Virus record (IMG/VR): IMGVR_UViG_3300030106_002968
Direction: 5' to 3' (one strand)
Source of the DNA: an uncultured virus (IMG/VR IMGVR_UViG_3300030106_002968)
Taxonomy: Duplodnaviria; Heunggongvirae; Uroviricota; Caudoviricetes
DNA: 20,000 nucleotides
In this document: positions 4,623 to 19,212 of the stretch, one piece after another
Position numbering within the stretch: position 1 is the stretch's first letter
Layout of the letters: each line of letters starts with the position of its first letter
Position numbers and translations under genes: made by a program
The notes under the pieces: model-generated
Told to the model about the DNA's origin: nothing
Databases searched by the model: none
What the model saw: only the letters and a program-made list of their open reading frames with translations

Positions 4623-5976
4623 AGATTTTACACGAAAAGTTTTACCATTTATCCAAATAGAATACTTTTCAGATTCAATTGAAAGAAAAGTTTTTGCTGA
4701 GATAAAAGAATTTGTAAATCGTTATGAGCAAGTGCCTACACATGAGGCGCTTGTGATTAATTTTACAGAAAAGAAAGAACTTACAGAAGATGAAGTCTCA
4801 AAATCTATTGAGCTTCTGAATGAAATCAAAACAACATCTGATGAAAAAGTAGATCAATCTTGGCTCACAGAACAAACAGAAAAGTTTTGTCAAGATAAAG
4901 CAATCTACAATGCAATCATGGATTCGGTTGCAATACTTGATGACAAAAGCACACAAAAATCTAAAGGTGAAATACCAAAACTATTGAGTGATGCACTTGG
5001 TGTTTCGTTTGACACTCATATTGGCCATGATTTCATAGATGATTACAAAGAACGATATGACTTTTATCACAAGGTTGAAAAAAGAACTAAGTTTGACCTT
5101 GACCTGATGAACAAGATTACAAAAGGCGGTCTGCCAGATAAAACTTTGAATGTATTGATGGCGGGCACAGGTGTTGGTAAAAGTTTGTTTATGTGCCACA
5201 TGGCATCAGCCTGTTTATCTCAAGGTGATAATGTTTTGTATATCACTTTAGAAATGGCTGAAGAAAAGATTGCAGAAAGAATTGATGCTAACTTATTAAA
5301 CATTAGTTTGAATGAACTTAGGTCTGTATCAAGAGATGATTATGAAAATAAATTCAAAGTGCTAAGAGCTAAGACACAAGGTAAACTAATCATCAAAGAA
5401 TATCCGACTGCATCAGCATCTACATTACATTTTAGAGCCTTGTTAAGTGAACTGGCGATGAAGAAACAATTTAGACCTAATATTATATTTGTTGATTACA
5501 TAAACATTTGTGCATCATCAAGAATACGACCAGGTGGTAATGTGAACTCATATACATATATTAAGTCTATTGCAGAAGAACTACGAGGTCTTGCTGTTGA
5601 GTTTGAACTACCAATTGTATCTGCTACACAAACAACGAGGTCTGGTTTTACAAACTCAGATCCAGGTCTTGAAGATGTTTCAGAATCATTTGGTCTACCT
5701 GCAACAGCCGACTTTATGTTTGCAATCATATCAAATGAACAACTTGAAGAACTGAATCAGATTATGGTCAAACAACAAAAGAATCGTTACAATGATCCAA
5801 GTTATTATAAGAAGTTTATTCTTGGTGTTGATAGAGCCAAGATGAGATTGTATGATGTAGAACAAGGTGGTCAAGATGACTTGTTAGACTCAGGTCAAGA
5901 TAATGGGCCAGATGGGCCAGATAAACCAATTAACACATTTGGCACAAGAGAAAAGTTTGATGGATTTAAAGTATGA
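4576..5976 (+). CDS. 41: gp41 replicative DNA helicase (DnaB-like)
   Basis: Walker A MAGTGVGKS, YITLEMAEE, IIKEYPT, IFVDYINI, SATQTTRSG, SESFGLPATADF, KNRY. Overlaps the uvsX 3' end by 47 nt. Confidence 0.97.
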   Translation: MTRLEQTILKNLVYNEDFTRKVLPFIQIEYFSDSIERKVFAEIKEFVNRYEQVPTHEALVINFTEKKELTEDEVSKSIELLNEIKTTSDEKVDQSWLTEQTEKFCQDKAIYNAIMDSVAILDDKSTQKSKGEIPKLLSDALGVSFDTHIGHDFIDDYKERYDFYHKVEKRTKFDLDLMNKITKGGLPDKTLNVLMAGTGVGKSLFMCHMASACLSQGDNVLYITLEMAEEKIAERIDANLLNISLNELRSVSRDDYENKFKVLRAKTQGKLIIKEYPTASASTLHFRALLSELAMKKQFRPNIIFVDYINICASSRIRPGGNVNSYTYIKSIAEELRGLAVEFELPIVSATQTTRSGFTNSDPGLEDVSESFGLPATADFMFAIISNEQLEELNQIMVKQQKNRYNDPSYYKKFILGVDRAKMRLYDVEQGGQDDLLDSGQDNGPDGPDKPINTFGTREKFDGFKV

Positions 5977-7091
5977 AAATAACTAGAGAACAAGCTTTAT
6001 ATGGTGCAAAAGTTTTCTCCGATTACTTTGACCGTTTTGATGGCATTGCTGATTACATTCGTGAACAAAAACTAAATGCACTTTCAGATGTGCCTGTTGG
6101 TCTTCCAGGTATGGGGCCTGAAACAGATTTGTTTAATGATAGTGATATGCACCCAGAAGATATGAAGATTGAGGTCCATGAGATGCAACAAAATCTTTGG
6201 GATAATTATCTATCAATCATATCATCACATTCAAACATGACAAGTATACCAGGAAAACAATTGCGTTTAGGTGTATTAGAAAAGAATACAAACAAGTGGC
6301 TTGGTTTTATTCGTATTGGTTCTCCTGTAATTAACATGAAGCCAAGAAACCAATTACTGAATAGTATTTTTACAGAGAGTCCAGAAAAAGCAAAAGCATT
6401 TAACAATACTACAATTATGGGTTTTGCAATCGTGCCTACACAACCATTTGGTTTCAATGCACTTGGTGGTAAATTACTTGCAGGTATTTGTTGTTCTCAC
6501 CATGTTCGTGAGATGATGAATAAAAAGTATAAAGGCATGAATGTCTGTTTGTTTGAAACTACTAGTTTGTATGGATCATCAAAGTCTAGTTCACAGTATG
6601 ATGGTATGAAACCATATATCAGATTTAAAGGTCTTACAGACTCTAATTTTCTACCATTGATGCACGGAAAACCATATGATGATCTAAAAGAGTATATGGA
6701 AAATGCTGTTGGTGAACCGTTAGTGCCAGAGGACGCCTCATCAAGAAAACTTAAAATATCTACAAAAATACAGGCGCTCATCAAGGCTGCTTTAGATGAA
6801 AGTGATTTAGATAAGTTTAATCAAACAATCAACAAAGCCCTTAATTTGACTGAAAAGAAACGATATTACGCCTCCTCCTATGGTTTCTCCAACTTTGTTG
6901 ATGTGGTGACTGGTAAGACCGATAAGTTGGTTCCAGACAAGGATAACCACGATAAACACTATCTGAAGAACGTAATTAACTGGTGGAAAAAGAAAGCCTC
7001 AAACAGATATGTGTCTCTAAAAAGAGACAATCGAATCAGAAAAGAGTTAGAAGTATGGACAGGTGAAAAAGAGATTGACATTATTCGGTAA
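5973..7091 (+). CDS. DUF4338 / Druantia DruA-like domain protein
   Basis: Motifs IPGKQLR, VPTQPFGFNALGGKLLAGICCS and FETTSLYGSSKSSSQYDG recall the DUF4338 pattern (GGKL..TTSLYG..SQY). ATGA coupling to gp41. Confidence 0.6.
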   Translation: MKITREQALYGAKVFSDYFDRFDGIADYIREQKLNALSDVPVGLPGMGPETDLFNDSDMHPEDMKIEVHEMQQNLWDNYLSIISSHSNMTSIPGKQLRLGVLEKNTNKWLGFIRIGSPVINMKPRNQLLNSIFTESPEKAKAFNNTTIMGFAIVPTQPFGFNALGGKLLAGICCSHHVREMMNKKYKGMNVCLFETTSLYGSSKSSSQYDGMKPYIRFKGLTDSNFLPLMHGKPYDDLKEYMENAVGEPLVPEDASSRKLKISTKIQALIKAALDESDLDKFNQTINKALNLTEKKRYYASSYGFSNFVDVVTGKTDKLVPDKDNHDKHYLKNVINWWKKKASNRYVSLKRDNRIRKELEVWTGEKEIDIIR

Positions 7092-7108
7092 TCATGTTAG
7101 GATAAATA
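7075..7108 (+). promoter_or_regulatory. Sigma70 promoter (extended -10) overlapped by a T4 late-like box
   Basis: TTGACA (7075-7080), 17 nt spacer, TAGGAT (7098-7103), with TG at 7095-7096. GATAAATA (7101-7108) is a 7/8 match to the late consensus TATAAATA. Confidence 0.7.
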
Positions 7109-7110
7109 AC

Positions 7111-8213
7111 ATGATGGCATACACATTTTTTCCAAAAACAGCAACAGAAGTTGTTAAAAAATTAAACCCTAAAAATGCTGACCAAATAGCAAAGGTTGGT
7201 GAAATAAGTCAATTGTTAAATTATTTAAAAAGTGATAAAAAAACAAAAGACATTATAGATACACCAATAAACATAGATCCATTAAAAATATCTTCTGTTA
7301 ATGTATCAAGAAAATTAAAAGGTGTTATAACAGAATCAGCAATCAAAAAGGCGGTTAGTTTAAAGAAAATAAAAATTAGATTTGGAGATGGTTCAGCTGG
7401 CGGTAGAGGTGTTAATAATAAAGGTGGTAAATTTGAAAAAGATTTAGGACCAGCATTTGAAAACTGGTGGACTGGTAAAAAAATTCAAGACGCTGATTTA
7501 TTAACAGCTGTTGAGGAGGTCTATGACAAGACCATACTCAAAAATTGGGAAGACTTATTTGTTTTACAAGAGGGAGCTGCAAATACAAAGAGACCGTTAC
7601 AATTTACACCAGACATAACAATCATGGCACCACCTGATAATAATATTGGTAAAATGGTAACTGATATAACATTAAAAAATAATGGTAAATCGGTGTATCT
7701 AAGTTTAAAATCAACCACGACTGTTACATTTTTTAATGTTGGGGTCAAAANNNNNNNNNNACAATATTGACAACACCAGAAATCAAAAGCGGTAATATAA
7801 CAGATAAGAATGGTTTGAAGTTATTAAAATTAATTGGCATAGACCCAGCTTTATTTACCGAACCATTTAACGAAAATAGTTATCGAGGATTTGAACAAGA
7901 AATAAAATTATCAGCTTCTAAAAAATCTAAATTAGAAAAACTCATAGAAAGTGGTATAGGTTATGGTTATACAGTTGTACATCAACTTAAAAAAGGTGAC
8001 GTAAAAGTTTTCAATGTTACTAAAAAATATATGCAAGACGCTTCAACTGTAGTTGGCCCTCTTACTGTTTATTATGGTGGAAAAACTGGCACAGGCAAAA
8101 GAGTAGACGTAGAGGTGAAAACAAAAAAATATTTAATGAATTTTAATATAAGAGATACTCAAGGAGGTGACGGTTACCCAACAAGATTAATGTGTAACTT
8201 TAAATACCTATGA
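7111..8213 (+). CDS. PD-(D/E)XK-superfamily nuclease-like protein (one gene interrupted by scaffold gap 7751-7760)
   Basis: The ORF-track pieces 7063-7770 and 7767-8213 join at the N gap (..NVGVK / TILTTPEIK..). Motifs GGKFEKDL ... VTDITLKNNGKSVYLSLK fit the E...D..(S)xK nuclease pattern. The ATG at 7111 or 7114 follows the promoter. Confidence 0.55.
7751..7760. other. Scaffold gap (10 N)
   Basis: N run. Confidence 1.
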
Positions 8214-9434
8214 ACTTCACAGAATTTTTACAAGAAGCCAGACAAGACAAGAATCTTCACTTAGAACATTTAGAAGATAATGTCTTGAATCGTGGTGTTG
8301 CTGGCGCCAGAGAGTCAATCAACTTTTTACAATCGTTGAGAGATATGCTTGCAGGTAAGTCCGCATCTAAAGTAAATGTTACAACAAAATGGGATGGTGC
8401 ACCTGCCATTTTCGCTGGTATAAATCCTGCAAATGGTAAATTTTTTGTTGGCACTAAATCAGTATTTAATGTAACACCTAAACTTAATTATAGAGACAGA
8501 GATATAGATAAGAACCACCCGACAGGTGNNNNNNNNNNTTAAAATAGCTTTGGCCTTTTTACCAAAACTTGGTATCAAAGGTGTATTACAAGGTGATATG
8601 ATGTTTACAAAAGGAGACTTGAAGAGAGAAACGATTGAAGGTGAGAGATACATTACGTTTCAACCAAACACAATTGTCTATGCAGTACCAGAAAATTCTA
8701 TCTTAGCTAAAAAAATGCAGGCCGCTCAACTTGGTATTGTTTTTCATACCTCGTATTCAGGTAGAACACTCAGAACTATGAAGCCATCCTTTAACATAGA
8801 CATTGGTAGATTACAACCAACAAAGGACGTTTGGTTTCGTGATGCTTCTTTCACCGATGCCTCTGGTACTGCCACATTTACAGATGCAGAGACAAGACAG
8901 ATTACAAATATACTCTCACAGGCAGGCAGAACATTTAGAACAATCAACGCTCAGGTCTTAAATCGTTTATCAATCAATGACAAGATACTTACAGAAATAA
9001 AAACATTCAATAACAAGTCAGTTCGTGCAGGTGAAAAAATTAGAAACACAAGTGTGCATACAATAAACTTGATTCGATTTGTAGAACAAAAACTAAACAA
9101 AGAAATACTCAAGGCAAAAAGAGCTGAGACAAAAAGAAAAAGACAACAAGAAAAGAATGAAATGATGAGATTCTTTAGACAATCAGCAATGCAGTTAGTA
9201 CAAATATTTAATCTAATGAATCAGATTGTTGATGCTAAATTAATCATCATACGCAAGCTACAAGAGATGAGACAGATTACGGGCACGTTTGTAAGAACAG
9301 ATGATGGTTTTAAGATTACAAACCCAGAGGGTTTTGTTGCAGTTGACAAACTAACAGGTGGTGCCTTGAAACTTGTTGATCGTTTAGAATTTTCACATCA
9401 AAATTTCACAGTTAAAAAACAATGGGACAAATAA
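8210..9434 (+). CDS. Conserved T4-like protein with ligase/nucleotidyltransferase motifs (DUF6267-like); interrupted by gap 8529-8538
   Basis: HLEHLED; TTKWDGAP (motif I KxDG); LQGDMMF (III); PEGFVAVD (IV); LKLVDRLEF (V). The two ORF-track pieces flank the N gap. Confidence 0.65.
8529..8538. other. Scaffold gap (10 N)
   Basis: N run. Confidence 1.
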
Positions 9435-9728
9435 ATGGCTTACGATATAGATAAAATCATACATGAATATGGAGATATGGATTTCGGCTTCACAGCAGTT
9501 GATGAAACGGAATATGAGGCAGTACAAGAAGAGTTAAAGAAAGAGAGTTATCAGAAGGACATTACAGTTGAACAATATAAAGAAAGACTAAGTGAATTAG
9601 AAAAATTAATTATGCCTTTCCTAACTAACCTATATAAATCCAGAGAACAGGCTTATATTCATTGGCCTAATCGTGGTAATTTATTAGAAAAACAAATGCA
9701 GAGAGTGTTAAAACTTACGAGAGGATAA
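9435..9728 (+). CDS. Hypothetical protein, acidic N-terminus, YIHWPNR motif
   Basis: 97 aa ORF abutting the upstream stop; codon usage matches neighbouring genes. Confidence 0.75.
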   Translation: MAYDIDKIIHEYGDMDFGFTAVDETEYEAVQEELKKESYQKDITVEQYKERLSELEKLIMPFLTNLYKSREQAYIHWPNRGNLLEKQMQRVLKLTRG

Positions 9729-10813
9729 TGAGTAATAAAAGAATACCAAGAAAACCTGGACAACCAGCAGGTTCTAAAAAACATTCAGACTTATATACAG
9801 ATGAAAACCCTAAAGGCACCATACACGGCCTCAAATTCGCATCCAAGTCTGATGCACAAGCATCAGTACGAAAAATCAAAGCAAGTGGAAGATCCCACGC
9901 CCATAAGATTCAAGCAGCGATAGCTATGGAGCAAAGAGCTCGAGTGATGGGTAAATCAGAAGCGGCTGCTGTATATCGTTCATTCATCAATATGATGAAA
10001 AGAAAAACTAAAAAGATGAATGAAGCGGCTTATGCTGGCAATCTTGGATTTGAAGAGTTAGTTAAGTTTCACTCTAAGGCCACACCACAACAAAAGAAAG
10101 AATTGAACTCACATATTAAGAATAAGAAACACAAAGAGTTTAGAGATTTGATTCATAATGTTACTGGTGTTAAACTACATAAGAGTGTGAACGAAGATAG
10201 TTCACCATACAATGAATGGACATATGCCGAACCTGTTAAGTATTCAAAGCATCTAACCAAGACATTTGGTCAACCCGATGAACTTACTGGTGAGAGAGCA
10301 GTTTGGTATGGTAAAGATGGATTCAAAAGAATTGTGGTACTAGATGAACATATATTACATGGTTCTCCTGCGCCACATTACGACTTTGTTTATAGTTATA
10401 TTGATCTAAAAGTGCCACACGAATTTGCAGAAGACATGGTGAACAGTAGTGAATCAATACTTTTAGATTTTCTTAAAAACGAAGTTGGTGCAAGATGTGG
10501 CTCACTTACAGCAAATGCAGTAACACTTAATTATGTTTTAGATATAGTTGCAGGTCGAGTGAAGCCAAGTAAGAAAGAGTATGAGAAAAGAATCTTAGAG
10601 ATGAGAAAGATGTTTGAAACTGGCAAAACCTATACAAATGATTGGTGGCCAGATGAAACAAAAGATGCAGACCCTAAGAACCCATATTACAAAGAAGGTA
10701 CAGTAGAAGAAGAATATGGTGCAGGTGAAGAAGGCACAGATAAAGCTGTAAAAAAATATATGAATGATACACCATATTCAAGAATGAAAAAATTTAAAAA
10801 CTATATAAAATAA
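9728..10813 (+). CDS. Modular hypothetical protein (basic domain, small domain, His/Cys-containing domain)
   Basis: 361 aa; GAGG SD; TAATG overlap. Segments SDLYTDENPKGTIHGL, AAYAGNLGFEELVKF and FGQPDE..HGSPAPHYDF..ARCGS are separated by MNE, VNE and VEEE junctions. Confidence 0.75.
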   Translation: MSNKRIPRKPGQPAGSKKHSDLYTDENPKGTIHGLKFASKSDAQASVRKIKASGRSHAHKIQAAIAMEQRARVMGKSEAAAVYRSFINMMKRKTKKMNEAAYAGNLGFEELVKFHSKATPQQKKELNSHIKNKKHKEFRDLIHNVTGVKLHKSVNEDSSPYNEWTYAEPVKYSKHLTKTFGQPDELTGERAVWYGKDGFKRIVVLDEHILHGSPAPHYDFVYSYIDLKVPHEFAEDMVNSSESILLDFLKNEVGARCGSLTANAVTLNYVLDIVAGRVKPSKKEYEKRILEMRKMFETGKTYTNDWWPDETKDADPKNPYYKEGTVEEEYGAGEEGTDKAVKKYMNDTPYSRMKKFKNYIK

Positions 10814-10828
10814 AAACTGGAGTTTGTT

Positions 10829-11701
10829 ATGAGAAATTTGATTATTGGTTGTGCAAGCAACTATGATTGGTCTACTTTACAGTATTGGTGTAATTCAATC
10901 AACCAATCTGGATTTGATGGTGAAAAAGTTTTAGTCTTAATGAACTGTGATAAAACAACAGTTTTAAAAGTTCAAGAAGAAGGTTTTAAGATTATTGCTT
11001 TTAAAAAAGATGATGAAGGTAATCTCACACACGAATCAAATATGCCACCTCATGTCGAGAGGTTTTTGCATATGTATGAATATCTAAGAAAAGCAGAGCC
11101 CTACGATTGGGTAGTTACAACTGATGTAAAAGATGTAATCTTTCAGAGTGACCCATGTAAGTTTGTACAAGAGCAATGTACAGAGACATTTGAAAATGGT
11201 GAAGTGATGAATATAAAACATGACTTAGTATTCGCATCTGAAAGTATGTTGTATAAAGATGAACCATGGGGCAATCAAAACTTGCTTGATACTTACGGCC
11301 CATACATTCATGAAATTTTTAAAGAGAATGAAATCTATAATGTAGGTGTTTTAGGTGGCACAGGTGAAGCTATGAAATCTCTACTAATTAATATATTTTC
11401 ATCTTGTATGGGTAAACCAATACCAATTTGCGACCAATCAACTTTCAATTTCATGATCTCTCAACCACCATATACAAAGACATCTAGGTATTTAAAATCT
11501 GAAGATGGTTGGGCTTGTCAATTAGGTACAACGGTTGACCCGGCAAAGATAGAACAATTTAAACCTCTCTTACTAGAGGAATCGCCAATCATGGAGGGTG
11601 GCTTAATTAAAACTTCTAAAGGAAAACCCTTTACAATTGTTCATCAATATGATAGGGTACCAGCATGGCGACACATAATACAAATGAAATACACAAAATG
11701 A
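10829..11701 (+). CDS. Glycosyltransferase-like protein (GT-A type)
   Basis: VVTTDVKDVIFQSDP (DxxD), YNVGVLGG, CDQSTFN, IVHQYDR; GGAG SD upstream. Confidence 0.65.
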   Translation: MRNLIIGCASNYDWSTLQYWCNSINQSGFDGEKVLVLMNCDKTTVLKVQEEGFKIIAFKKDDEGNLTHESNMPPHVERFLHMYEYLRKAEPYDWVVTTDVKDVIFQSDPCKFVQEQCTETFENGEVMNIKHDLVFASESMLYKDEPWGNQNLLDTYGPYIHEIFKENEIYNVGVLGGTGEAMKSLLINIFSSCMGKPIPICDQSTFNFMISQPPYTKTSRYLKSEDGWACQLGTTVDPAKIEQFKPLLLEESPIMEGGLIKTSKGKPFTIVHQYDRVPAWRHIIQMKYTK

Positions 11702-12405
11702 AAATAGCACTTTGTATATCAGGGCAACCTAGAAGTTTTGAAAAAGGTTATGAATATCATTACAAAAACATTATAGAAAATAATGACGTTGATGTTTTTA
11801 TTCACACTTGGAAATCACCTAACTTAAATGAGTTGATTGACCTTTATAAGCCAAAAGGTAGTATGATTGAAGAGTCAATTAATCCAGACTTATCAAAGTA
11901 TACGAGAGTGCCACCACCTCAACCAAACTGGAAGGTGAAGAAACCTGCATTATCAACATATGCTCAGTTGTATGCAATTAAGAAATGCAATCAACTCAAG
12001 GTAAAAGAGGAGGTGAAGAATAAATTTGTGTATGATTGGGTCATACGATCAAGATTTGATTTTGCAATCAATGTTCGTATACCTTTTGAAGAGCTGAATA
12101 ATAACAAACTACACATACCAAATTGTAGAATGACACCTGCAAGGGATTTTGGTAATGACCAGTTTGCTTTTTCTGGTTCAAGAGTGATGAACGCCTACGC
12201 TAAAACATTTGATTATATTGATTATCATTATGATAAAGGCACACAAATGATGTGTGAAGATTTAATGAGTGCCAATTGGAAATATCATGACATGGTTGGT
12301 GAAAATTTAGTTTATTGTAATATTGACCACCCGTTTCCTCCTGGTCCACATAATGGTACTTGGCATTCTTTGATTAGAGAGGACTTTGAACAATGGGCAG
12401 TTTGA
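11698..12405 (+). CDS. Putative glycosyltransferase-like protein (KIALCISGQPR family)
   Basis: Likely start is ATG 11698 (ATGA overlap). Motifs MKIALCISGQPRS, DVFIHTW, YDWVIRSRFD, NDQFAF are typical of proteins in polysaccharide loci. Confidence 0.6.
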   Translation: MKIALCISGQPRSFEKGYEYHYKNIIENNDVDVFIHTWKSPNLNELIDLYKPKGSMIEESINPDLSKYTRVPPPQPNWKVKKPALSTYAQLYAIKKCNQLKVKEEVKNKFVYDWVIRSRFDFAINVRIPFEELNNNKLHIPNCRMTPARDFGNDQFAFSGSRVMNAYAKTFDYIDYHYDKGTQMMCEDLMSANWKYHDMVGENLVYCNIDHPFPPGPHNGTWHSLIREDFEQWAV

Positions 12406-13133
12406 TTATATGTATGGCTGGTTTAAACACCAGATTTCATGATGTTGGTTTTGATGTACCAAAATATTTATTACCATGGCGTGATACTTGTATTGTGGCC
12501 GCAATCGTTGCTGAGTTTCAAAAAGATTACAAGTTTGATGATGTACTACTACTTGCAAATAAAAGAGACCAATACTTTAAAAACGACTTAGTAAAAGAAA
12601 TAGAAAAGATAGGCCTATCAGAAAATAATATACATTACATTGGTGACACGAATGGTCAGGCACACACAGCATATATTGGTGCAACATTGGTCAAAGATGA
12701 ACATAAACCAATATACGTTCATAATGCAGATACATTTCTTACAAATAGAAACTTCAAGGAAATAGAAGAGAAGTTGATTGGTATAACTGGCGCAAGGGCT
12801 TATGTTGATATATTCGTTGCAAACAATCCTAATTATTCATATGTTAAAAAAGATGCAGAATATATTTTAGATATAGTTGAGAAAGATGTAATCTCACCGT
12901 TTGCAAGTTCTGGTTTGTACTGTTTTCATTCTGCATATGAATATAAAGGCACCTTTGAGAATATAAATAATTCTGGAGAAATATACATAGCAAATATTAT
13001 ATCTGCTATATTAAATAACAATAGTCCAGTTATGACGAATGAGTTAGTAAAAAATCAAGAGACAATTGTTCTTGGTTCACCTGAAGAATATAGTATGGAA
13101 TATACAAAATGGGCATTGAAAAAACGAAACTAA
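12393..13133 (+). CDS. Sugar/polyol-phosphate nucleotidyltransferase (NTP_transferase-like)
   Basis: IICMAGLNTRF..G..VPKYLL, TNGQAHT, HNAD, IVEK..IS..ASSGLYCF, GEIYIA, LGSPEEY. Confidence 0.8.
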   Translation: MGSLIICMAGLNTRFHDVGFDVPKYLLPWRDTCIVAAIVAEFQKDYKFDDVLLLANKRDQYFKNDLVKEIEKIGLSENNIHYIGDTNGQAHTAYIGATLVKDEHKPIYVHNADTFLTNRNFKEIEEKLIGITGARAYVDIFVANNPNYSYVKKDAEYILDIVEKDVISPFASSGLYCFHSAYEYKGTFENINNSGEIYIANIISAILNNNSPVMTNELVKNQETIVLGSPEEYSMEYTKWALKKRN

Positions 13134-14083
13134 AGGGTGGTTCATTGAGCTCAACCTATCTTATTAAAGAAGGTGATAAGAAGTTCATTAGAAAATGTGT
13201 ATCACTCACAAAAGACCGAGAGTATGGTTATGTGAGATGGTATTCTCAGCTTAAAAAATTACAAAGACTTGAATCAGATTTACCTGGTTTATTCCCTAAA
13301 GTTTTAAATGTGTCATATGATGATGATGAGGCGTATTTTGATTTAGAGTATCTTTCAAATCACAAAAATTTATTTGAAATACTAACTGATAAAAAATTAT
13401 CACTTAATGAAGTTGAGAAGATACATCATGCTTTTGTAACTGGTCTCAGAGCCATACATAAATTTTCATATAGGCCGAACTCAGGTGCACCGCTACTATA
13501 TTTTATAGAAGAAGTTGAGCAGAAAATAGAAGATGCCAGAAAAGATGATAAGTTCAATTCATTCTACGAAAGAGGTACTTATGAATTTAAAGGTGTAATT
13601 ACACATGGCCTTAATAACTACTTAGATGAACTAAAAAATTATTTTTCTGAATTAAAGTTAGAGAGTGAAGAACACATACATGGTAATCCAACTTTGGAAA
13701 ATACAATGTATTCTTTTAAAGATAAGTCAATTGTATTCATAGACCCATACGAAGAGAGTATAATTGATACAAAGTTTTTAGATTATGCAATGGTTCTTCA
13801 AAGTAGTCGTAGTCATTACGAACTCTATAACTCAGCTACTGTTTCATATAGAGAGCATACCGTTATGCCGTATATAAACATAAAACGGGTACCAGAACCT
13901 TTAGAATACTTTAATCAACTCTTTGAGTCTACCATAAAGAAAGAAGATAAAATGTTGATTGATGTTTTAGAGGCGACACAATTTATTCGTATGTTACCAT
14001 TTAAGTGTGCAGCTGGTCATGTGTCTCATGCTAAATACTTTTATATTCATGCTTGTCATTTATTAAGGAATTTATTTGAATAA
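13109..14083 (+). CDS. APH/choline-kinase-like phosphotransferase
   Basis: Gly-rich LKGGSLSSTY, FIRK, FDLEYL, Brenner-like HIHGNPTLEN, VFIDP, DYAMVLQS. Confidence 0.7.
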   Translation: MGIEKTKLKGGSLSSTYLIKEGDKKFIRKCVSLTKDREYGYVRWYSQLKKLQRLESDLPGLFPKVLNVSYDDDEAYFDLEYLSNHKNLFEILTDKKLSLNEVEKIHHAFVTGLRAIHKFSYRPNSGAPLLYFIEEVEQKIEDARKDDKFNSFYERGTYEFKGVITHGLNNYLDELKNYFSELKLESEEHIHGNPTLENTMYSFKDKSIVFIDPYEESIIDTKFLDYAMVLQSSRSHYELYNSATVSYREHTVMPYINIKRVPEPLEYFNQLFESTIKKEDKMLIDVLEATQFIRMLPFKCAAGHVSHAKYFYIHACHLLRNLFE

Positions 14084-15212
14084 TCTTTTGGGTAATTTTT
14101 ATCAATCAAAGCGAGCTTGGCAAATAGAATCATCTTTACCAGTTTCATTTACTGTGCATTATTCTAATAATATTTTTGATCCAAAAAATTATGATATGAT
14201 TAGTTATACAGAAGAAACTAGAAGCCTAGTCGTATGTGATGAAAATGTTTATAATTTATATTCTGGTGCTATTCATAATTACTTTGAAAGGATGAAACGA
14301 GATTTTAAAATCTTGAAAATCAAATGTTCTGAACCAGATAAAACGTGGGAGACAACTGATAAAATTTTATCATTCTTTGAAAAGAGTAAAGTAGCAAGAA
14401 GAGAACCAATCATTGCAATAGGTGGTGGTGTTTGTTTAGATATTGTTGGTTTTGCTTGTAGTATTTACAGACGAGGCATACCTTACATAAAAATACCGAC
14501 AACTCTTTTAGCTATTGTTGATGCTTCAGTTGGTGTAAAAGTTGCAACAAATTATTTTGATAGACGTAATAGACTTGGTGCATACTACCCACCAATTGCA
14601 ACTCTTATAGATAAAAAGTTTGTAAAGACACAAGAGTTAAGAGAGATCGTGAATGGCCTTGCAGAGATATTTAAACTTGCAGTAATCAAATCAAGTGAGT
14701 TATTTGATTTATTAGAAGAGAATAGTCATCAACTCTTAGAAGAGAAGTTTCAGTATGGTGCTGTGCCTGTTCGTGTAATTAATTTAGCCATATCAGAGAT
14801 GATAGAAGAGTTAGCACCTAATTTATGGGAAAAAGAATTAGATAGGTGTGTTGATTTTGGTCATACATTTAGTCCAATTATAGAAATGAAAAACAAAGAA
14901 TCATTATTACATGGTGAAGCAGTAACACTTGATTGCCTTTTTAGTTCTTGTATTGCATATTATAGAAATAAATTAGAACATGATGACTTGATGAGAATAT
15001 TTAACTTAGCAAGAAATTTAAGACTGCCTACAAAACACAAAGATTTTATGGATATTGACTTGATTAATAAAGCTTTATCTGATACCATGAAACATAGAAA
15101 CAATAAACAAAGAATACCAATACCGATAGATGTTGGTAATTATAATTTTATAAATGATCTAAGCTCTGATGAAATTAAAGATGTGATAAAAGTTTATAGG
15201 GAATTTTCATGA
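14076..15212 (+). CDS. Sedoheptulose 7-phosphate cyclase, 2-epi-5-epi-valiolone synthase (EEVS)-like
   Basis: DHQS-superfamily motifs AIGGGVCLDIVGFA, YRRGIPYIKIPTTLLAIVDASVGVK, NRLGAYYPP, GLAEIFK, LLHGEAV, plus the EEVS-type signature MIEELAPNLWE..LDRCVDFGHTFSP. TTG start with AAGGA SD. Confidence 0.85.
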   Translation: MNNLLGNFYQSKRAWQIESSLPVSFTVHYSNNIFDPKNYDMISYTEETRSLVVCDENVYNLYSGAIHNYFERMKRDFKILKIKCSEPDKTWETTDKILSFFEKSKVARREPIIAIGGGVCLDIVGFACSIYRRGIPYIKIPTTLLAIVDASVGVKVATNYFDRRNRLGAYYPPIATLIDKKFVKTQELREIVNGLAEIFKLAVIKSSELFDLLEENSHQLLEEKFQYGAVPVRVINLAISEMIEELAPNLWEKELDRCVDFGHTFSPIIEMKNKESLLHGEAVTLDCLFSSCIAYYRNKLEHDDLMRIFNLARNLRLPTKHKDFMDIDLINKALSDTMKHRNNKQRIPIPIDVGNYNFINDLSSDEIKDVIKVYREFS

Positions 15213-15907
15213 CCATGAAACCAAATATTTTTAAAAAAAGAGTCTTAATAACAGGCTCTACAAAGGGCATTGGTAGAGCTATAACAGATAGGTTTTTACT
15301 TGAAGACTATGAAGTACAGGGGTTAGCTAGAGGTGGCGCTAACATTATAAAGCATGAGAGTTATTTTCATTGGAATGCTGATGTTGCTGACCCATTTAGG
15401 CTTGAGGTGATAGCTAATAGATTAACTGATAAAAAAATTGATGTGTTAGTTAATAATGCAGCTTTATTTCAATACAAGTCCTTTTCTGATATGAATATGA
15501 ACGATATGTCGTACATGATTGATGTTAATTTAAAAGCCCCAATGTTCATAACTAGAACATTCTTACCTTTAATGAACTCAGGTTCTAAAATATTTTTTAT
15601 AAACTCAGTTGCAGGCCTAGAACAATTAGAAAATCAATCTGTTTATTGTGCTACAAAACACGGGCTCACAGGATTTGCTGGTGTTCTAGGTAAAGAGTTA
15701 AAAGAAAAGAATATCAAAGTAACAAGTATACATCCAGGTGGTGTAAATACACCAATGTGGAAAGATAATGTAGACTTTCATGATAAATTAGATAAACTAT
15801 TAAGACCAGAGGATGTAGCAGATATGGTTTATTTTATTACAGAACAACATTACAACGTAGAAACTAAAACAGTTAAAATGTATCCAGATATAGAATGGCA
15901 TCAATAA
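15209..15907 (+). CDS. Short-chain dehydrogenase/reductase (SDR)
   Basis: ITGSTKGIG, LVNNAA, INSVAG, catalytic YCATK, IHPGGVNT. Confidence 0.93.
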   Translation: MTMKPNIFKKRVLITGSTKGIGRAITDRFLLEDYEVQGLARGGANIIKHESYFHWNADVADPFRLEVIANRLTDKKIDVLVNNAALFQYKSFSDMNMNDMSYMIDVNLKAPMFITRTFLPLMNSGSKIFFINSVAGLEQLENQSVYCATKHGLTGFAGVLGKELKEKNIKVTSIHPGGVNTPMWKDNVDFHDKLDKLLRPEDVADMVYFITEQHYNVETKTVKMYPDIEWHQ

Positions 15908-16608
15908 TACCTGATAAAAATTTATTCATAGTTACTTCAGCGTTAGAGCCCAGAGTTGGTGTAATTACAAAAGAAGATAGATTCAAACAAACCATAGATA
16001 CACTTGAAAATTTAAAACAAAAAGCACCAAAGGCTATAATACTTTTTACAGATGGTTCACCAGTTTCATGTGATCCAGAACACATGAAGGAAATATCAAA
16101 GTATGTTCACGGCACAATGTATTGGTGTGAAGATGCACAGATAAAAGATTTTGGTATGTTTGGTAAAAAAAGTGAGGCTGAAATATTATTACTAATCAAA
16201 ACCCTTACACTATTAAAACAAAATTCAGACCTACAAAAAATTATGAGCTCTGTAAAAAGAATATTTAAATATTCAGCTAGGTCTTTATTACAAGATGAAT
16301 TTAATATTGGCATATATGATAATTCAAACCTTTACGGTAGATATGTTTTTAAAGAAAGAATACCAACTTGGATAAATGATAAGTCAATTACATCACACTT
16401 ATTAATCACGAGGTTATTTTCATTATGCCCATCTCTACTTGATGATTATATACAAACACTTATTAAGATTTTAAATTCATGTATGAGATATGGCATAGAT
16501 ACAGAGAACGCACATTTTAGAGAGATAGATAAGAAGCACCTAGTTGAATTAAGAAAATTATATTGTGAAGGTATTATGGCCGGAACAGGAAAGAAAGAGG
16601 TTTATTAA
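15895..16608 (+). CDS. Hypothetical protein, possibly glycosyltransferase-like
   Basis: LFIVTSAL..RFKQT..TL, LFTDGS, KSEAE, RIFKYSAR resemble FKxSGRY-type proteins of glycan loci. Confidence 0.5.
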   Translation: MASIIPDKNLFIVTSALEPRVGVITKEDRFKQTIDTLENLKQKAPKAIILFTDGSPVSCDPEHMKEISKYVHGTMYWCEDAQIKDFGMFGKKSEAEILLLIKTLTLLKQNSDLQKIMSSVKRIFKYSARSLLQDEFNIGIYDNSNLYGRYVFKERIPTWINDKSITSHLLITRLFSLCPSLLDDYIQTLIKILNSCMRYGIDTENAHFREIDKKHLVELRKLYCEGIMAGTGKKEVY

Positions 16609-16609
16609 T

Positions 16610-17333
16610 ATGAATTTGTGGAAATATTTTTTAGAAAATGATGGTAATAAAATTACAAGGTGGACACATTACTTTCCGATATATGAAAAACATTTTGAAA
16701 GATTTAGAAATAAGCCAGTAAAGATATTAGAAATTGGTGTCTTAAATGGTGGTTCTCTACCAATGTGGCAGAAATATTTTGGCCCACTTTCAAAGATAGT
16801 TGCGATTGACATAACACCATCTTGTAAAAACTATGAAATACCTGGCACCGATGTTCGCATTGGCGACCAATCAGATGAAAAATTTTTACAAGAATTAGTA
16901 GATGAATATGGTGAGTTTGATGTTATCATAGATGATGGTAGTCATCAGGTCGCCCATGTAAATAAAACATTTCAGTATTTGTACCCAAAGATGTCTAAAG
17001 ATGNNNNNNNNNNGTGTCTATCTAGTTGAAGATACACACGCAGCCTATTGGAAAGATAGTCATGGCGGTGGTTTAGATGAACCAGAATCAATCATAAATG
17101 TATCTAAAAACTTGATAGATAAACTCAATGCAGACCACACAAAAGGTCAAGTAGAACCAGATGATTTCACCAGATCCACACAATCAATTACATTTTATGA
17201 TAGTGTAATTGTATTTGAAAGAGGTGAGATACATTGGAAACAACCATTAGAGTTTGGTAAAAATGCACCTATGGATTATGCACCTAACCCAGAGTTACAG
17301 CAGGCTTCGGAGGATTTTGTTATAAGGACTTAA
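16610..17333 (+). CDS. Class I SAM-dependent (sugar O-)methyltransferase; interrupted by gap 17004-17013
   Basis: HYFPIYEKHF, ILEIGVLNGGSL, IDI, IGDQSD, FDVIIDDGSH, (G)VYLVED. Deleting the Ns fuses both pieces in frame. Confidence 0.88.
17004..17013. other. Scaffold gap (10 N)
   Basis: N run. Confidence 1.
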
Positions 17334-17337
17334 TTTG

Positions 17338-17345
17338 TATAAATA
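17338..17345 (+). promoter_or_regulatory. T4-type late promoter (gp55-dependent)
   Basis: Perfect TATAAATA in the intergenic gap, 33 nt before the ATG at 17379, with GAGG SD. Confidence 0.8.
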
Positions 17346-17378: not shown

Positions 17379-19212
17379 ATGAAATTCCTAGATTACATAC
17401 AGGAAAATAAAGACAACCATGCCGTGATGTCATTCGGTAGAATGAATCCGATTACAAAAGGTCATGAGAAACTTGTCAATAAGGTACAACAAGTCGCAAG
17501 ACAAGTTGGTGGTTCACACCATATAATATTATCACATAGTCAGGATAAGAATAAAAATCCACTTTCATCAGCTGATAAGTTAAAACACGCCAAGAAGGCA
17601 TTTCCACGTGCCAATCTATCTACCTCAGATAAAGAAAGCCCAAATTACCTATCACAGGCAGCTAAGTTGCACAAGAAAGGTGTATCACACCTGCACGTTG
17701 TCGCAGGTTCAGACCGTGTTTCAGAGTTTAAAAATACTCTCAGTAGATACAACGGCACACATTCAAAAGCATTATATAACTTCAAAAAGATAACTGTACA
17801 TTCATCTGGTGATAGAGACCCAGATAGTCATGGCACATCTGGTATGTCAGGCACAAAGATGAGAGGTCACGCAGCTTCTGGTAATTATAAGGCATTTAAG
17901 TCTGGTGCACCATCTGGTATGAGTGATAGCCATGTAAAGAGTATGTACAATGATACTCGCAGAGGTATGAAGATCGCAGAAGATGTTGCAGTATTTCTGA
18001 TTGGTGGTCCTGGATCTGGTAAAGATTTTATATTTAAGAGTGTGATGGAGGATTTTGGTCTTACAGAGATGAATACAGACAAGGCTTTTGAATATCTTAT
18101 CTCAGAGAGTTATGAAACACATAAGAGGGCAAACATTGTCATTAATGGTAATGCACATGAGATAAAAATATTAGAACAAATAAAAGAAAGATTAGAAGAA
18201 CAAGGTTATAAAACAGCGATGGTTCTAGTTTCTACAACTGATGAAGTATCAAAGCAGAGAAATGAAAGTAGAAAAAGAATGATGAATGAAGATTTAAGAT
18301 TTAAGAAATNNNNNNNNNNTGGTCAAGCCATATTTTGAAGATGTATTTAAAGACAATTACATTGAGTTTGATAATTCAGATAAAATATCTGATGATAACA
18401 TTATCGACCTCAAAGAATGGTTGGAGAGTAGAATGTCAAATGATATGCAAGATATTGATGATCTATTTGAGGAGTATTTTGATGAAGATTTAAGAAAATG
18501 GTTTTCAAAAGATCACCCACAAGGTGATTGGAAAAGAGTAGATTCAAAGGGTAATGTAGTAGGCCCTTGTGCAAGGAAACCAGGTGAGCCAAAGCCTAAA
18601 TGTATGTCTAAAGCAACAAGGGCTAAACTTTCTAAGAAAGAAAGGGCAGCTGCTGTTCGTGCAAAAAGAAGAGCAGACCCAGTTGCTGATAGAGCTGGTA
18701 AAGGTGGAAAGCCTGTGATGGTTTCAAGTTTCGGTAAAGGTAAAATTAAAAAGGAGGCAGTAGATGATAGGCAATATGATTCGCAAATTAGTGAAAGAAG
18801 AGTTAGTGAAGATGTTACTGGAAATATTTCCAGAAAAAAGAAAGGCAATATCAACAAAGATTTTAATGCTTGGTACACAGGATCCCAAGTTAGCCAATAC
18901 TATAAGCCAAACGAGCTCTCGGAGGAGACGATCAGCGAATACGGGCGGTCAACCGATTGGCGACCAGAGGAAGAAAAGACAGTATCGCAGAAGGTCACGA
19001 AAGAATCAATCGACAGGGGTATAGAAACGGGTATGGCGTTGAACTCATACTCTAAAGAATACAACAATCGGCGCAAGGGTGGCAAGGTGGTGCCGTTCAA
19101 AGAACTTACAGGCGACACCACTACAGCCTCTATTGGCGCTCAGAAAGAAGATGAATTAAAGAAAAAAGGCATTAGTTTAAGGACATTTAGAGCAAAGAGG
19201 CCAATTGGATGA
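17379..19212 (+). CDS. Multidomain protein: cytidyltransferase-like (HxGH) domain, P-loop kinase and basic Cys-containing module; interrupted by gap 18310-18319
   Basis: SFGRMNPITKGHEKL, VAGSDR, MSGTKMR; FLIGGPGSGKD. After the gap the frame of ORF 18421-19212 is already open from 18322 (VKPYFEDVFKDNYIEFDNS..), which completes the kinase domain. Then EDLRKWF..GPCAR..PKC. Confidence 0.72.
18310..18319. other. Scaffold gap (10 N)
   Basis: N run. Confidence 1.

What the first reader, a model, noticed from the sequence alone, without database searches (positions are those of the whole stretch)
10829..17333. Phage-encoded C7-cyclitol (pseudosugar) synthesis, activation and transfer operon
Seen: eight genes with overlapping or abutting stops and starts: GT-like, GT-like, nucleotidyltransferase, kinase, sugar-phosphate cyclase, SDR, GT-like/hypothetical, O-methyltransferase. 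Established: in validamycin and acarbose biosynthesis an EEVS (ValA/AcbC) cyclises sedoheptulose-7-P, and the cyclitol is then phosphorylated, redox-modified, converted to an NDP-cyclitol and coupled by glycosyltransferase-like enzymes. Inference: the island has the same enzymatic logic inside a T4-like phage. It could make an NDP-carbasugar and attach it to phage DNA (hypermodification resistant to restriction or glycosidases), to virion proteins, or to the host surface glycan. I know of no characterised phage pathway of this type.
Basis: partly seen in the sequence, partly recalled or inferred. Interest (0 to 1): 0.9.

Follow-up and report, generated by a model that had tools for sequence, protein, structure and literature searches.

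The report
Phage cassette for an activated carbasugar
An uncultured marine T4-like phage carries eight tightly packed genes that probably turn the common metabolite sedoheptulose 7-phosphate into a nucleotide-activated seven-carbon ring "pseudo-sugar" and pass it to phage transferases; no step has been tested at the bench.

Summary
Window 10829-17333 carries eight same-strand genes with overlapping or abutting ends. The ORF list shows nine, because a run of N splits the methyltransferase.

Assignments:
- The cyclase is EEVS-type, not DHQS. It scores 283 bits to ValA, 233 to DDGS and 139 or less to DHQS. The residues that separate these enzymes match ValA.
- The others are an NTP-transferase, an APH-like kinase, an SDR, two GT-A-fold proteins, a third weakly GT-like protein, and a MycE/TylE-type sugar O-methyltransferase.

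The set is co-conserved in related T4-like viral contigs: kinase 71 of 71, NTP-transferase 71 of 71, SDR 72 of 72, full set 34 of 39. A kinase-EEVS-SDR-NTP-transferase core also sits in bacterial and archaeal surface-polysaccharide loci.

Best reading (0.6): synthesis of an NDP-activated C7 cyclitol for a glycoconjugate. The acceptor is unknown. T4-style DNA sugar modification is disfavoured, since 0 of 5 long related phage records hold a ThyA-family hydroxymethylase.

I found no paper on such a phage pathway. This scan reached the same reading before on other DNA. Nothing has been tested biochemically.

The parts
10829..11701 (+). 290-aa protein 'A1', probable nucleotide-sugar-type transferase (weak assignment)
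   Evidence: No Pfam or NCBIfam hit. phrog_1579 glycosyltransferase E 6.5e-5. A homologue hits PLOD GT at E 0.015. Atlas look-alikes are viral hypotheticals, one cluster carrying PF03407 on 10% of members. An invariant D-V-K-D stretch is present. Found in 55 of 61 related viral loci with room for it.
11665..12405 (+). 'A2', GT-A-fold transferase of family DUF7796; the real start is probably the ATG at 11698
   Evidence: PF25072 E 1.2e-7. AlphaFold model pLDDT 82.5. Foldseek best matches are GT6 retaining glycosyltransferases (ABO transferases, BoGT6a), E 2e-7, TM about 0.5. Relatives are 234-237 aa and all unnamed. Found in 58 of 61 loci.
12393..13133 (+). sugar-phosphate-type nucleotidyltransferase
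   Evidence: PF00483 E 5.8e-10. Family profile hits PDB 4evw, 'nucleoside-diphosphate-sugar pyrophosphorylase', at E 4.5e-41, then RmlA and GlmU at about 1e-10. Found in 71 of 71 loci.
13109..14083 (+). protein-kinase-like (APH/choline-kinase-like) small-molecule kinase
   Evidence: Weak Pkinase and fructosamine-kinase hits. The archaeal homologue hits Choline_kinase at 8.4e-5. Atlas look-alikes carry PF01636 APH. Conserved K-G-G-S loop, Lys29, H-G-N-x-T-L-E-N and I-D-P-Y-E-E motifs; the usual catalytic Asp is Asn in 35 of 36. Found in 71 of 71 loci.
14076..15212 (+). EEVS-type sedoheptulose-7-phosphate cyclase (TTG start)
   Evidence: PF01761 plus PF24621. The aroB model scores 215.7 bits, below its cut-off of 305. 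PDB scores: ValA 4p53 283 bits, DDGS 5tpr 233, best DHQS 139. Asp260, His340 and Asn249 follow ValA, and the metal ligands Glu197, His263 and His279 are kept.
15209..15907 (+). classical short-chain dehydrogenase/reductase
   Evidence: PF00106 E 3.9e-40. The start overlaps the cyclase stop by 4 nt. Found in 72 of 72 loci.
15895..16608 (+). 'A4', GT-A-fold transferase with no sequence family
   Evidence: No Pfam hit. Model pLDDT 93.6, pTM 0.91. Foldseek matches alpha-1,3-GalT and glycogenin at E 5e-7. VIA-align gives Z 13.2 to GnT-I and Z 11-13 to dozens of GT-A enzymes, including the PBCV-1 capsid glycosyltransferase 2p6w. Found in 61 of 70 loci.
16565..17333 (+). MycE/TylE-type SAM-dependent sugar O-methyltransferase, one gene interrupted in the window by a 10-N run (17004-17013)
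   Evidence: One ORF in 47 of 47 related loci. Full-length profile hits PDB 3ssm at E 1.7e-36 and 8ia9, demethylmacrocin O-methyltransferase, at 2.9e-32. PF13578 matches 15 of 16 members. Present in 28 of the 34 complete sets.

Best explanation
The eight genes form a phage operon for a nucleotide-activated C7 cyclitol (carbasugar) and its use in a glycoconjugate.

Proposed route:
1. The EEVS-type cyclase converts sedoheptulose 7-phosphate to 2-epi-5-epi-valiolone. The family assignment is shown by sequence; the product is inferred.
2. The SDR reduces the ring ketone to a secondary alcohol (inferred).
3. The APH-like kinase phosphorylates that pseudo-anomeric hydroxyl (inferred; steps 2 and 3 could run in the other order).
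4. The nucleotidyltransferase makes the NDP-cyclitol (inferred; the nucleotide is unknown).
5. The GT-A-fold proteins A2 and A4, and probably A1, transfer the cyclitol and/or ordinary sugars to an acceptor. The cyclitol could be linked pseudo-glycosidically or as a phospho-cyclitol.
6. The MycE/TylE-type enzyme O-methylates a hydroxyl.

The four-gene core lies in surface-polysaccharide loci of bacteria and an archaeon. The most likely acceptor is therefore a glycan: the infected host's envelope polysaccharide or a virion protein glycan.
For: Cyclase identity: It is far closer to ValA than to DDGS or DHQS (283, 233 and 139 bits). It fails the aroB cut-off (215.7 against 305). At the positions where ValA, DDGS and DHQS differ in the printed alignments it carries Asp and His, as ValA does. 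These residues, Asn249 and the three metal ligands are kept in 138 of 138 EEVS-like sequences compared. The DHQS control has Asn, Val and Asp there.

Coupling in phages:
- kinase 71 of 71
- NTP-transferase 71 of 71
- SDR 72 of 72
- A2 58 of 61, A1 55 of 61, A4 61 of 70
- full set 34 of 39
The set stays together through a rearrangement: the methyltransferase lies either after A4 or between A1 and A2.

Cellular counterparts: A kinase-EEVS-SDR-NTP-transferase cassette at 35-48% identity occurs in 12 of 80 cellular EEVS loci.
- In Polynucleobacter sp. 80A-SIGWE it sits between ManC, a GT2 and a Wzz-like gene on one side, and a GT9-like gene, GDP-mannose dehydratase, an RmlC-like gene and DegT on the other.
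- In a Woesearchaeota MAG it sits between a Wzx-type flippase on one side and PMT_2, GtrA and GT2 genes on the other.

Phylogeny: Cassette-linked EEVS, viral plus cellular, group apart from the actinobacterial EEVS that lack these partners (SH-aLRT 91; viral clade 100).

Other parts: A2 and A4 have GT-A folds. The methyltransferase matches sugar O-methyltransferases.

Precedent: SDR reduction (AcbN), 1-phosphorylation (AcbU) and nucleotidylation (AcbR/VldB) of an EEVS-derived cyclitol are biochemically shown in acarbose biosynthesis (PMC9200736, passages read).

Occurrence: The cluster recurs at 98.9% identity as one 5108-nt contig in a marine metagenome from a study other than the possible source.
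Against: - No step is tested.
- The kinase has Asn where APH-type kinases have the catalytic Asp, in 35 of 36 family members. It may work differently or not be a kinase.
- Pfam found no epimerase or dehydratase family among the eight proteins. The product would then be a saturated cyclitol, and its NDP ester is a poor glycosyl-type donor. The known pseudoglycosyltransferases use unsaturated GDP-valienol (PMC9200736) and, as I recall, are GT-B.
- The NTP-transferase's closest solved relative (4evw) is uncharacterised. It could instead activate an ordinary sugar 1-phosphate.
- A1 has no firm family. A1, A2 and A4 have no homologues in the cellular cassettes.
- The acceptor is unknown.
Confidence: 0.6

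Rival explanations
1. The operon makes a free, diffusible cyclitol natural product that acts on host or competitor metabolism during infection. This could be a glycosidase or trehalase inhibitor of the validamycin/acarbose kind, or a signalling cyclitol. NDP-activation and the GT-like enzymes would build a small pseudo-oligosaccharide rather than decorate a polymer.
For: All characterised EEVS pathways read here give small molecules: acarbose, validamycin, kirkamide and gadusol (PMC12904256 and PMC9200736 passages). GDP-valienol is used there to build a small pseudo-oligosaccharide. The phage transferases have no homologues in the cellular polysaccharide loci.
Against: Pfam found no aminotransferase, epimerase or dehydratase family in the cluster. 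The cellular cassettes lie beside a Wzx flippase, a Wzz-like gene, GtrA and polysaccharide glycosyltransferases, not in natural-product clusters. Actinobacterial natural-product EEVS form a separate branch without the kinase and NTP-transferase partners.
Confidence: 0.12
2. The cyclitol is attached to phage DNA as a hypermodification that protects against restriction, by analogy with T4 glucosyl-hydroxymethylcytosine.
For: The phage is T4-like and the cluster lies next to replication and recombination genes. T4-like phages are known to glycosylate DNA with small soluble transferases (my own knowledge).
Against: 0 of 5 long related phage records hold a ThyA-family (PF00303) hydroxymethylase. 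These include one complete 172-kb record with terminal repeats and one 95% complete record. The same search found the family in 10 of 14 control genomes. ThyX is present in 2 of 2. The same core cassette sits in cellular surface-glycan loci. The window's own genome is not held, so this rests on relatives, and other routes of DNA modification are not excluded.
Confidence: 0.06
3. The cluster makes a gadusol-like sunscreen or antioxidant, using EEVS plus an oxidoreductase plus an O-methyltransferase, to protect infected surface-ocean cells from UV.
For: An EEVS followed by a methyltransferase-oxidoreductase gives gadusol in vertebrates (PMC4426668, passages read). The cluster holds an EEVS, an SDR and an O-methyltransferase. 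Near-identical DNA occurs in marine plankton metagenomes.
Against: The methyltransferase is missing from 6 of the 34 complete sets, while the kinase and NTP-transferase, which gadusol synthesis does not need, are never missing. The methyltransferase is of the macrolide-sugar MycE/TylE type.
Confidence: 0.05
4. The cyclase is an ordinary 3-dehydroquinate synthase carried as an auxiliary gene for aromatic amino-acid synthesis. This is how most source annotations name its relatives.
For: Where a source names the relatives, all but one are called '3-dehydroquinate synthase/synthetase'.
Against: The protein scores below the aroB cut-off. It is far closer to ValA than to any DHQS. The residues that distinguish DHQS are changed. 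No other shikimate gene is in the window.
Confidence: 0.01

Closest known systems
GDP-valienol branch of acarbose and validamycin biosynthesis (AcbC/ValA EEVS; AcbM/ValC; AcbO; AcbL; AcbN; AcbU; AcbJ; AcbR/VldB; AcbS/VldE)
   Same: An EEVS-type cyclase starts from sedoheptulose 7-phosphate. The cluster holds an SDR (compare AcbN), a kinase that could play AcbU's 1-kinase role, an NTP-transferase (compare AcbR/VldB), and transferases that could use the NDP-cyclitol (PMC9200736, passages).
   Different: It is viral. Pfam found no ROK 7-kinase, epimerase, dehydratase, HAD phosphatase or aminotransferase family. The kinase is APH-like. The transferases are GT-A rather than the GT-B fold of the pseudoglycosyltransferases (recalled). 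The EEVS lies on a different branch from the actinobacterial enzymes. The cellular counterparts lie in polysaccharide loci.
[quoted passage not shown]
   Same: It is the best solved match (E 2.6e-83 over residues 10-371). It shares the metal ligands, and the Asp and His at the two positions where DDGS has Ala and Thr.
   Different: The relationship is only moderate. I could not check the full set of 14 fingerprint sites that PMC4426668 says Kean et al. 2014 defined, because that paper is not held.
Kinase plus nucleotidyltransferase activation pairs such as AmgK/MurU or LicA/LicC (recalled, not tested here)
   Same: An APH/choline-kinase-fold kinase sits next to a PF00483-type nucleotidyltransferase, which together activate an alcohol or sugar as an NDP derivative for cell-surface decoration.
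   Different: The substrate here would be a carbocyclic C7 polyol made on the spot by the neighbouring cyclase and SDR. No sequence comparison with these proteins was run.
Vertebrate gadusol pathway (EEVS plus MT-Ox)
   Same: An EEVS is followed by redox and O-methylation enzymes (PMC4426668).
   Different: Here the SDR and methyltransferase are separate and of other families. The methyltransferase is dispensable (absent from 6 of 34 sets), while the kinase and NTP-transferase are obligatory partners.
Virus-encoded glycosylation machinery of chloroviruses (PBCV-1 A64R, PDB 2p6w)
   Same: A small soluble GT-A-fold transferase is encoded by a virus. A4 aligns to 2p6w with Z 12.2, rmsd 3.1 over 170 residues.
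   Different: The fold match is no better than to many cellular GT-A enzymes. Chloroviruses are not known to me to make a cyclitol donor.

Membership tests
[quoted passage not shown] | DHQS-like two-domain architecture | tested here: met
   PF01761 E 1.5e-33 and PF24621 E 3.8e-21.
[quoted passage not shown] | Closer to a proven EEVS than to DDGS, EVS, DOIS or DHQS | tested here: met
   ValA 4p53 scores 283 bits, DDGS 5tpr 233, best DHQS 139, 6c5c 97 and DOIS 2d2x 93.
[quoted passage not shown] | Three metal ligands (Glu, His, His) | tested here: met
   Glu197, His263 and His279 align with ValA's. They are kept in 138 of 138 relatives.
[quoted passage not shown] | The two fingerprint sites that separate EEVS from DDGS (recalled as ValA Asp281 and His360; PMC4426668 says two such sites exist without naming them) | tested here: met
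   The query has Asp260 and His340, as ValA does. DDGS 5tpr has Ala and Thr at those positions. The residues are kept in 138 of 138 relatives.
[quoted passage not shown] | All 14 active-site fingerprint residues of Kean et al. 2014 | not tested
   The paper that lists them is not held. Only a subset was compared.
[quoted passage not shown] | Product is 2-epi-5-epi-valiolone | not testable with these tools
   Needs an enzyme assay.
3-dehydroquinate synthase (AroB) | Score above the curated equivalog cut-off | tested here: not met
   TIGR01357 scores 215.7 bits against a cut-off of 305.
[quoted passage not shown]
   The query has Asp and His where 5tpr has Ala and Thr.
Acarbose/validamycin-type GDP-valienol pathway | ROK-family cyclitol 7-kinase, epimerase, dehydratase and HAD phosphatase accompany the EEVS | tested here: not met
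   Pfam found none of these families among the eight proteins. A1 remains unassigned. No direct comparison with the Acb or Val proteins was run.
Acarbose/validamycin-type GDP-valienol pathway | Cyclitol-1-phosphate nucleotidyltransferase of the PF00483 type | tested here: inconclusive
   The PF00483 family is present. Substrate and nucleotide are unknown.
GT-A glycosyltransferases | GT-A (nucleotide-diphospho-sugar transferase) fold | tested here: met
   A2: Foldseek E 2e-7 to GT6 enzymes. A4: Z 13.2 and dozens of GT-A chains at Z 11-13. A1 was not folded.
GT-A glycosyltransferases | DxD-type metal/diphosphate-binding motif and transferase activity | tested here: inconclusive
   A1 has an invariant D-V-K-D stretch. 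A2 and A4 have invariant acidic and basic residues but no clear DxD. Activity is not testable here.
MycE/TylE-type sugar O-methyltransferases | Sequence-profile membership | tested here: met
   The full-length family profile hits 3ssm at E 1.7e-36 and 8ia9 at 2.9e-32, both over about 190 residues.
T4-type DNA sugar hypermodification | Pyrimidine hydroxymethylase of the ThyA family in the phage genome | tested here: not met
   0 of 5 long related records hold one; the controls rang in 10 of 14 genomes. The window's own genome is not held.

The most novel reading that the evidence does not exclude
Carbasugar-containing glycoconjugates exist in nature. A compact four-gene cassette (EEVS, SDR, APH-like kinase, nucleotidyltransferase) supplies an NDP-C7-cyclitol to glycan assembly in bacteria, archaea and a large group of aquatic T4-like phages. 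The phage GT-A enzymes act as a new, GT-A class of pseudoglycosyltransferase. They would install a non-hydrolysable pseudo-sugar on the host envelope or virion, which blocks glycan-degrading enzymes, receptors of competing phages, or both.
Probability: 0.3. Interest if true: 0.9.

Novelty: new variant of a known kind. Interest (0 to 1): 0.78.

Why it matters
EEVS-derived C7 cyclitols are known as small-molecule natural products: acarbose, validamycin, kirkamide and gadusol. If this reading holds, three things follow.
- A short and different route to an NDP-activated carbasugar is widespread. The cyclase search gave 6276 proteins at E <= 1e-20 among the 8000 candidates scored, and the 120 best, at about 60% identity or more, lie on metagenome or viral contigs.
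- The cassette is carried by many aquatic T4-like phages as an auxiliary pathway.
- In cells it feeds surface-polysaccharide assembly, which points to a class of glycan building block that I found described in no paper.

It would also give phage biology a new kind of envelope or virion modification. It would give enzymology new cyclitol kinases, nucleotidyltransferases and possibly GT-A pseudoglycosyltransferases. A cultured bacterium with the cassette, Polynucleobacter sp. 80A-SIGWE, makes the question directly testable.

Tried and rejected
- **DNA search against cultured phages:** blastn of the whole cluster against 50,697 phage records found nothing. tblastn of the cyclase found 15 records, all at 25-33% identity. 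Those with annotation call it aroB, and several are bacterial sequences filed as phage. So no record in that collection carries this cyclase type.
- **Sequence profiles against the PDB:** small profiles of A1, A2, the kinase and A4 gave only chance-level hits. A 36-member kinase profile gave only weak protein-kinase hits, E 0.0075 and above.
- **Mutual similarity of A1, A2 and A4:** hhalign found none, with probability below 1% in each pair. They are not recent paralogues.
- **A2 relatives:** 988 proteins at E <= 0.001. The 120 listed are unnamed or 'hypothetical', and the only Pfam label is DUF7796.
- **Promoters and terminators:** the T4 late-promoter word TATAAATA occurs twice, against 2.9 expected. 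One copy lies in the gap after the cluster at 17338. Sigma-70-like sites number 41 against 46 expected. Terminator-like sites number 9 against 4.2 expected, and none of the 9 lies at an end of the cluster on the + strand. I draw no conclusion on timing of expression.
- **Transcription:** three seawater metatranscriptome runs from two studies hold short contigs at 99-100% identity on the kinase gene (13209-13473 and 13560-13831) and the cyclase gene (14151-14424). The tool warns that DNA can be present in such libraries and that contigs do not show transcription. This is a weak hint only, and the parts without cover say nothing.
- **The apparent split of the methyltransferase into two genes:** rejected as an artefact of an N run.
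- **Papers not held:** Kean 2014, Asamizu 2012 and Osborn 2017 could not be read. Residue names for ValA, and the statement that the known pseudoglycosyltransferases are GT-B, are therefore recalled. No supplementary files were opened.
- **Window's own genome:** not held.

Full report
**1. What is in the window**

All long ORFs lie on the + strand. The left part encodes T4-type replication and recombination proteins: family-B DNA polymerase, UvsX and a DnaB-like helicase. The polymerase is only 52-55% identical to its best matches, the gp43 of Synechococcus and Prochlorococcus myoviruses. This is therefore an uncultured T4-like phage related to, but outside, the cultured cyanomyoviruses. Near-identical DNA for 12393-15907 is held in marine metagenomes. 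Fourteen rows hold at least half of the sampled words. Two of these may be the source sample. The other twelve come from at least five other studies. One 5108-nt contig from another study covers 11081-16188 with 58 differences.

**2. The observation**

From 10829 to 17333 there are eight genes whose called ORFs overlap by 4 to 44 nt. The ORF list shows nine, because a 10-N run at 17004-17013 breaks the last gene. In 47 of 47 related loci that hold both parts they form one ORF. The second gene probably starts at the ATG at 11698. Its relatives are 234-237 aa and align from that methionine.

**3. The cyclase**

- It has the two DHQS-type domains but fails the curated aroB model, scoring 215.7 bits against a cut-off of 305.
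- Against all solved structures the best match is ValA, the EEVS of validamycin biosynthesis (4p53, E 2.6e-83, 283 bits). Next come the Anabaena DDGS (5tpr, 233 bits) and the best DHQS (139 bits).
- In the printed alignments the query shares ValA's Asp in V-D-F-G-H and His in K-H-R. DDGS has Ala and Thr at those positions, and DHQS has Asn at the first.
- From memory these are the ValA Asp281 and His360 fingerprint sites. PMC4426668 confirms that two such sites and a 14-residue fingerprint exist. The paper that defines them is not held.
- Across 138 distinct EEVS-like sequences from the fetched loci, these two residues, Asn249 and the three metal ligands are invariant. A Salmonella DHQS control differs at all three of these positions.

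I conclude that the protein is an EEVS-type sedoheptulose-7-phosphate cyclase. The exact product is inferred.

**4. The partners**

- *Nucleotidyltransferase (12393-13133).* It is a PF00483 enzyme. Its family profile hits the uncharacterised 'nucleoside-diphosphate-sugar pyrophosphorylase' 4evw at E 4.5e-41, and RmlA and GlmU at about 1e-10.
- *Kinase (13109-14083).* It has only weak protein-kinase and fructosamine-kinase hits. Its archaeal homologue touches the choline-kinase family. Its language-model look-alikes carry the APH family. It keeps a glycine-rich loop, a lysine and the Mg-binding Asp. The catalytic loop reads H-G-N-x-T-L-E-N, with Asn in place of the usual Asp in 35 of 36 members.
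- *SDR (15209-15907).* It is a classical SDR.
- *A2 (DUF7796).* It folds with pLDDT 82.5 and resembles GT6 retaining glycosyltransferases.
- *A4.* It has no sequence family. It folds with pLDDT 93.6 into a GT-A domain, with Z 13.2 to GnT-I and many GT-A chains at Z 11-13.
- *A1.* It has only weak glycosyltransferase hints and was not folded.
- *Methyltransferase.* Read at full length from relatives, it matches 3ssm (MycE, by my recollection of that entry) and the demethylmacrocin O-methyltransferase 8ia9 at E 1e-36 and 1e-32.

**5. Co-conservation**

Two scans of viral contigs gave 7 and then 80 loci; the 80 were kept from 105 confirmed. Counts use the 78 loci L008-L085, and for each gene only those loci with enough flank to hold it:

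| Gene | Present |
|---|---|
| Kinase | 71 of 71 |
| NTP-transferase | 71 of 71 |
| SDR | 72 of 72 |
| A2 | 58 of 61 |
| A1 | 55 of 61 |
| A4 | 61 of 70 |
| Seven genes without the methyltransferase | 34 of 39 |
| Methyltransferase, within those 34 | 28 |

Many loci are near-copies from different samples, so these are not independent lineages. The five exceptions (L032, L047, L060, L062, L085) keep the four-gene core and carry other companions. These include GT8-, GT29- and MptE-like genes, or a RuBisCO-like protein, a carbamoyltransferase and a radical-SAM enzyme. The methyltransferase lies either after A4, as in the window, or between A1 and A2. The set therefore stays together through rearrangement.

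**6. Cellular counterparts**

Of the 80 cellular EEVS loci kept, from 97 confirmed, 12 also hold homologues of the kinase and the NTP-transferase, and 11 of them also the SDR.

- Nine have the order kinase-EEVS-SDR-NTP-transferase, at 36-48% identity. They come from Myxococcota, a Desulfobulbaceae MAG, a Fibrobacteria MAG, a Woesearchaeota MAG and the isolate Polynucleobacter sp. 80A-SIGWE.
- A tenth, an unclassified archaeal MAG (L088), holds the kinase directly upstream of the EEVS. Its only NTP-transferase match (26%) lies about 2.4 kb downstream, and no SDR was found.
- In Polynucleobacter the neighbours are ManC, a GT2, a Wzz-like protein, a GT9-like protein, GDP-mannose 4,6-dehydratase, an RmlC-like epimerase and a DegT aminotransferase.
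- In the archaeon (the Woesearchaeota MAG) they are UDP-glucose dehydrogenase, a Wzx-type flippase, a PMT_2 enzyme, GtrA and two GT2 genes.

These are surface-polysaccharide loci. The 65 distinct cellular sequences grouped as lacking the kinase and NTP-transferase are mostly actinobacterial.

*Tree.* I built it from 68 of the 139 distinct sequences. All small groups were kept, and 25 sequences each were drawn at random from the two large groups; the other 71 were left out. Rows with under 90% coverage or with stops had been dropped earlier. The viral sequences form a clade with SH-aLRT 100. The cassette-type cellular ones form another with 96. The two group together (91), apart from the actinobacterial enzymes.

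*Two MAG contigs inside the viral clade.* L086 and L087 have the viral gene order. L087 is a genuine bacterial contig: it carries citrate synthase, a permease and a polyprenyl synthetase nearby. This points to exchange between phage and a gammaproteobacterium. The direction is open.

**7. Mechanism**

The minimal logic that fits four always-linked genes has four steps: ring closure (EEVS), ketone reduction (SDR), phosphorylation of the new hydroxyl (kinase) and nucleotidylation. The last three have proven precedents on EEVS-derived cyclitols in AcbN, AcbU and AcbR/VldB (PMC9200736, passages). The phage route would be shorter. Pfam found no ROK 7-kinase, epimerase, dehydratase or phosphatase family.

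This creates a chemical difficulty. Without dehydration the cyclitol is saturated, and its NDP ester is a poor donor for a glycosyl-type transfer. Three outcomes remain possible:

- one of the enzymes also dehydrates the ring;
- the transfer is of a phospho-cyclitol;
- the GT-A enzymes use ordinary sugars and only one step handles the cyclitol.

I cannot tell which from sequence.

**8. Target**

- DNA is disfavoured. 0 of 5 long related phage records hold a ThyA-family hydroxymethylase; one is complete at 172 kb with terminal repeats and one is 95% complete. ThyX is present in 2 of 2.
- A glycan is favoured by the cellular context.
- Nothing here separates host envelope from virion glycan.

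**9. Novelty**

Full-text searches found no paper on a phage EEVS or cyclitol pathway, or on a cyclitol in a surface polysaccharide:

- '2-epi-5-epi-valiolone' with 'phage' gave 4 papers, none on a phage gene by their titles and abstract openings in the listing.
- '3-dehydroquinate synthase' with 'auxiliary metabolic gene' and 'phage' gave 1 paper, a gut-virome survey.
- 'cyclitol' with 'O-antigen' and 'sedoheptulose 7-phosphate' gave none.

A 2026 review of cyclitols does not contain the words phage, virus or viral. The library lacks most subscription papers. This scan has reached the same reading before on other DNA; those notes are not independent evidence. I class the finding as a new variant of a known kind. 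The chemistry family (EEVS-derived, NDP-activated cyclitol) is known. The compact cassette, its viral carriage and its link to polysaccharide loci are not.

Noticed in passing
window 7751-7760, 8529-8538, 17004-17013, 18310-18319: Four runs of exactly 10 N. Each coincides with an apparent gene split or truncation: 7063-7770 / 7767-8213; the DUF6267 protein as 8210-8542 / 8526-9434; the methyltransferase; and the end of 17379-18338. ORF counts from this window should allow for that.
   Followed up: partly
window 13109-14083 (residues 191-198): The cassette kinase family has H-G-N-x-T-L-E-N where APH-type kinases have H-x-D. The residue is Asn in 35 of 36 members and Asp only in one archaeal MAG. 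This is either an unusual catalytic arrangement or a different phosphoryl or nucleotidyl chemistry.
   Followed up: partly
L087:8305-11813 (genome contig of a gammaproteobacterial MAG): A genuine bacterial contig (citrate synthase, permease and polyprenyl synthetase nearby) carries the cassette in the viral gene order at 61% cyclase identity. It nests inside the viral clade of the tree, next to a GT2 and a 2204-aa protein with no family. This suggests phage-host gene exchange and hints at the host group.
   Followed up: partly
L085:1301-15883 and L060:3080-8262: Other viral lineages keep the four-gene core with different companions. L085 has a RuBisCO-like protein, a carbamoyltransferase, a radical-SAM enzyme, and DUF6071 and DUF6492 proteins. 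L060 has GT8-, GT29- (sialyltransferase-like) and MptE-like proteins and a Methyltransf_24 enzyme.
   Followed up: no
L011 and L012, 11787-13987: In these loci the best A4 match lies about 1.5 kb further downstream than usual. L012 holds two A4-like copies (11787-12497 and 13283-13987), so the transferase is duplicated.
   Followed up: no
window 5973-7091: A 372-aa phage protein matches the Druantia defence protein DruA family (PF14236, E 1.9e-9, residues 58-193). This is an anti-phage-defence-type domain inside a T4-like phage.
   Followed up: no
window 17379-18338: The gene after the cluster fuses a cytidylyltransferase-like domain with a P-loop (zeta-toxin/AAA-like) kinase domain (phrog_3041 E 2.5e-61). 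It follows the cluster, directly or after a few kb of other genes, in most related loci. It is preceded by the word TATAAATA at 17338. Whether it belongs to the pathway is open.
   Followed up: no
window 9728-10813 and 18421-19212: The two unknown proteins flanking the region both match phrog_727. The first is absent at that place from most of the more distant relatives.
   Followed up: no
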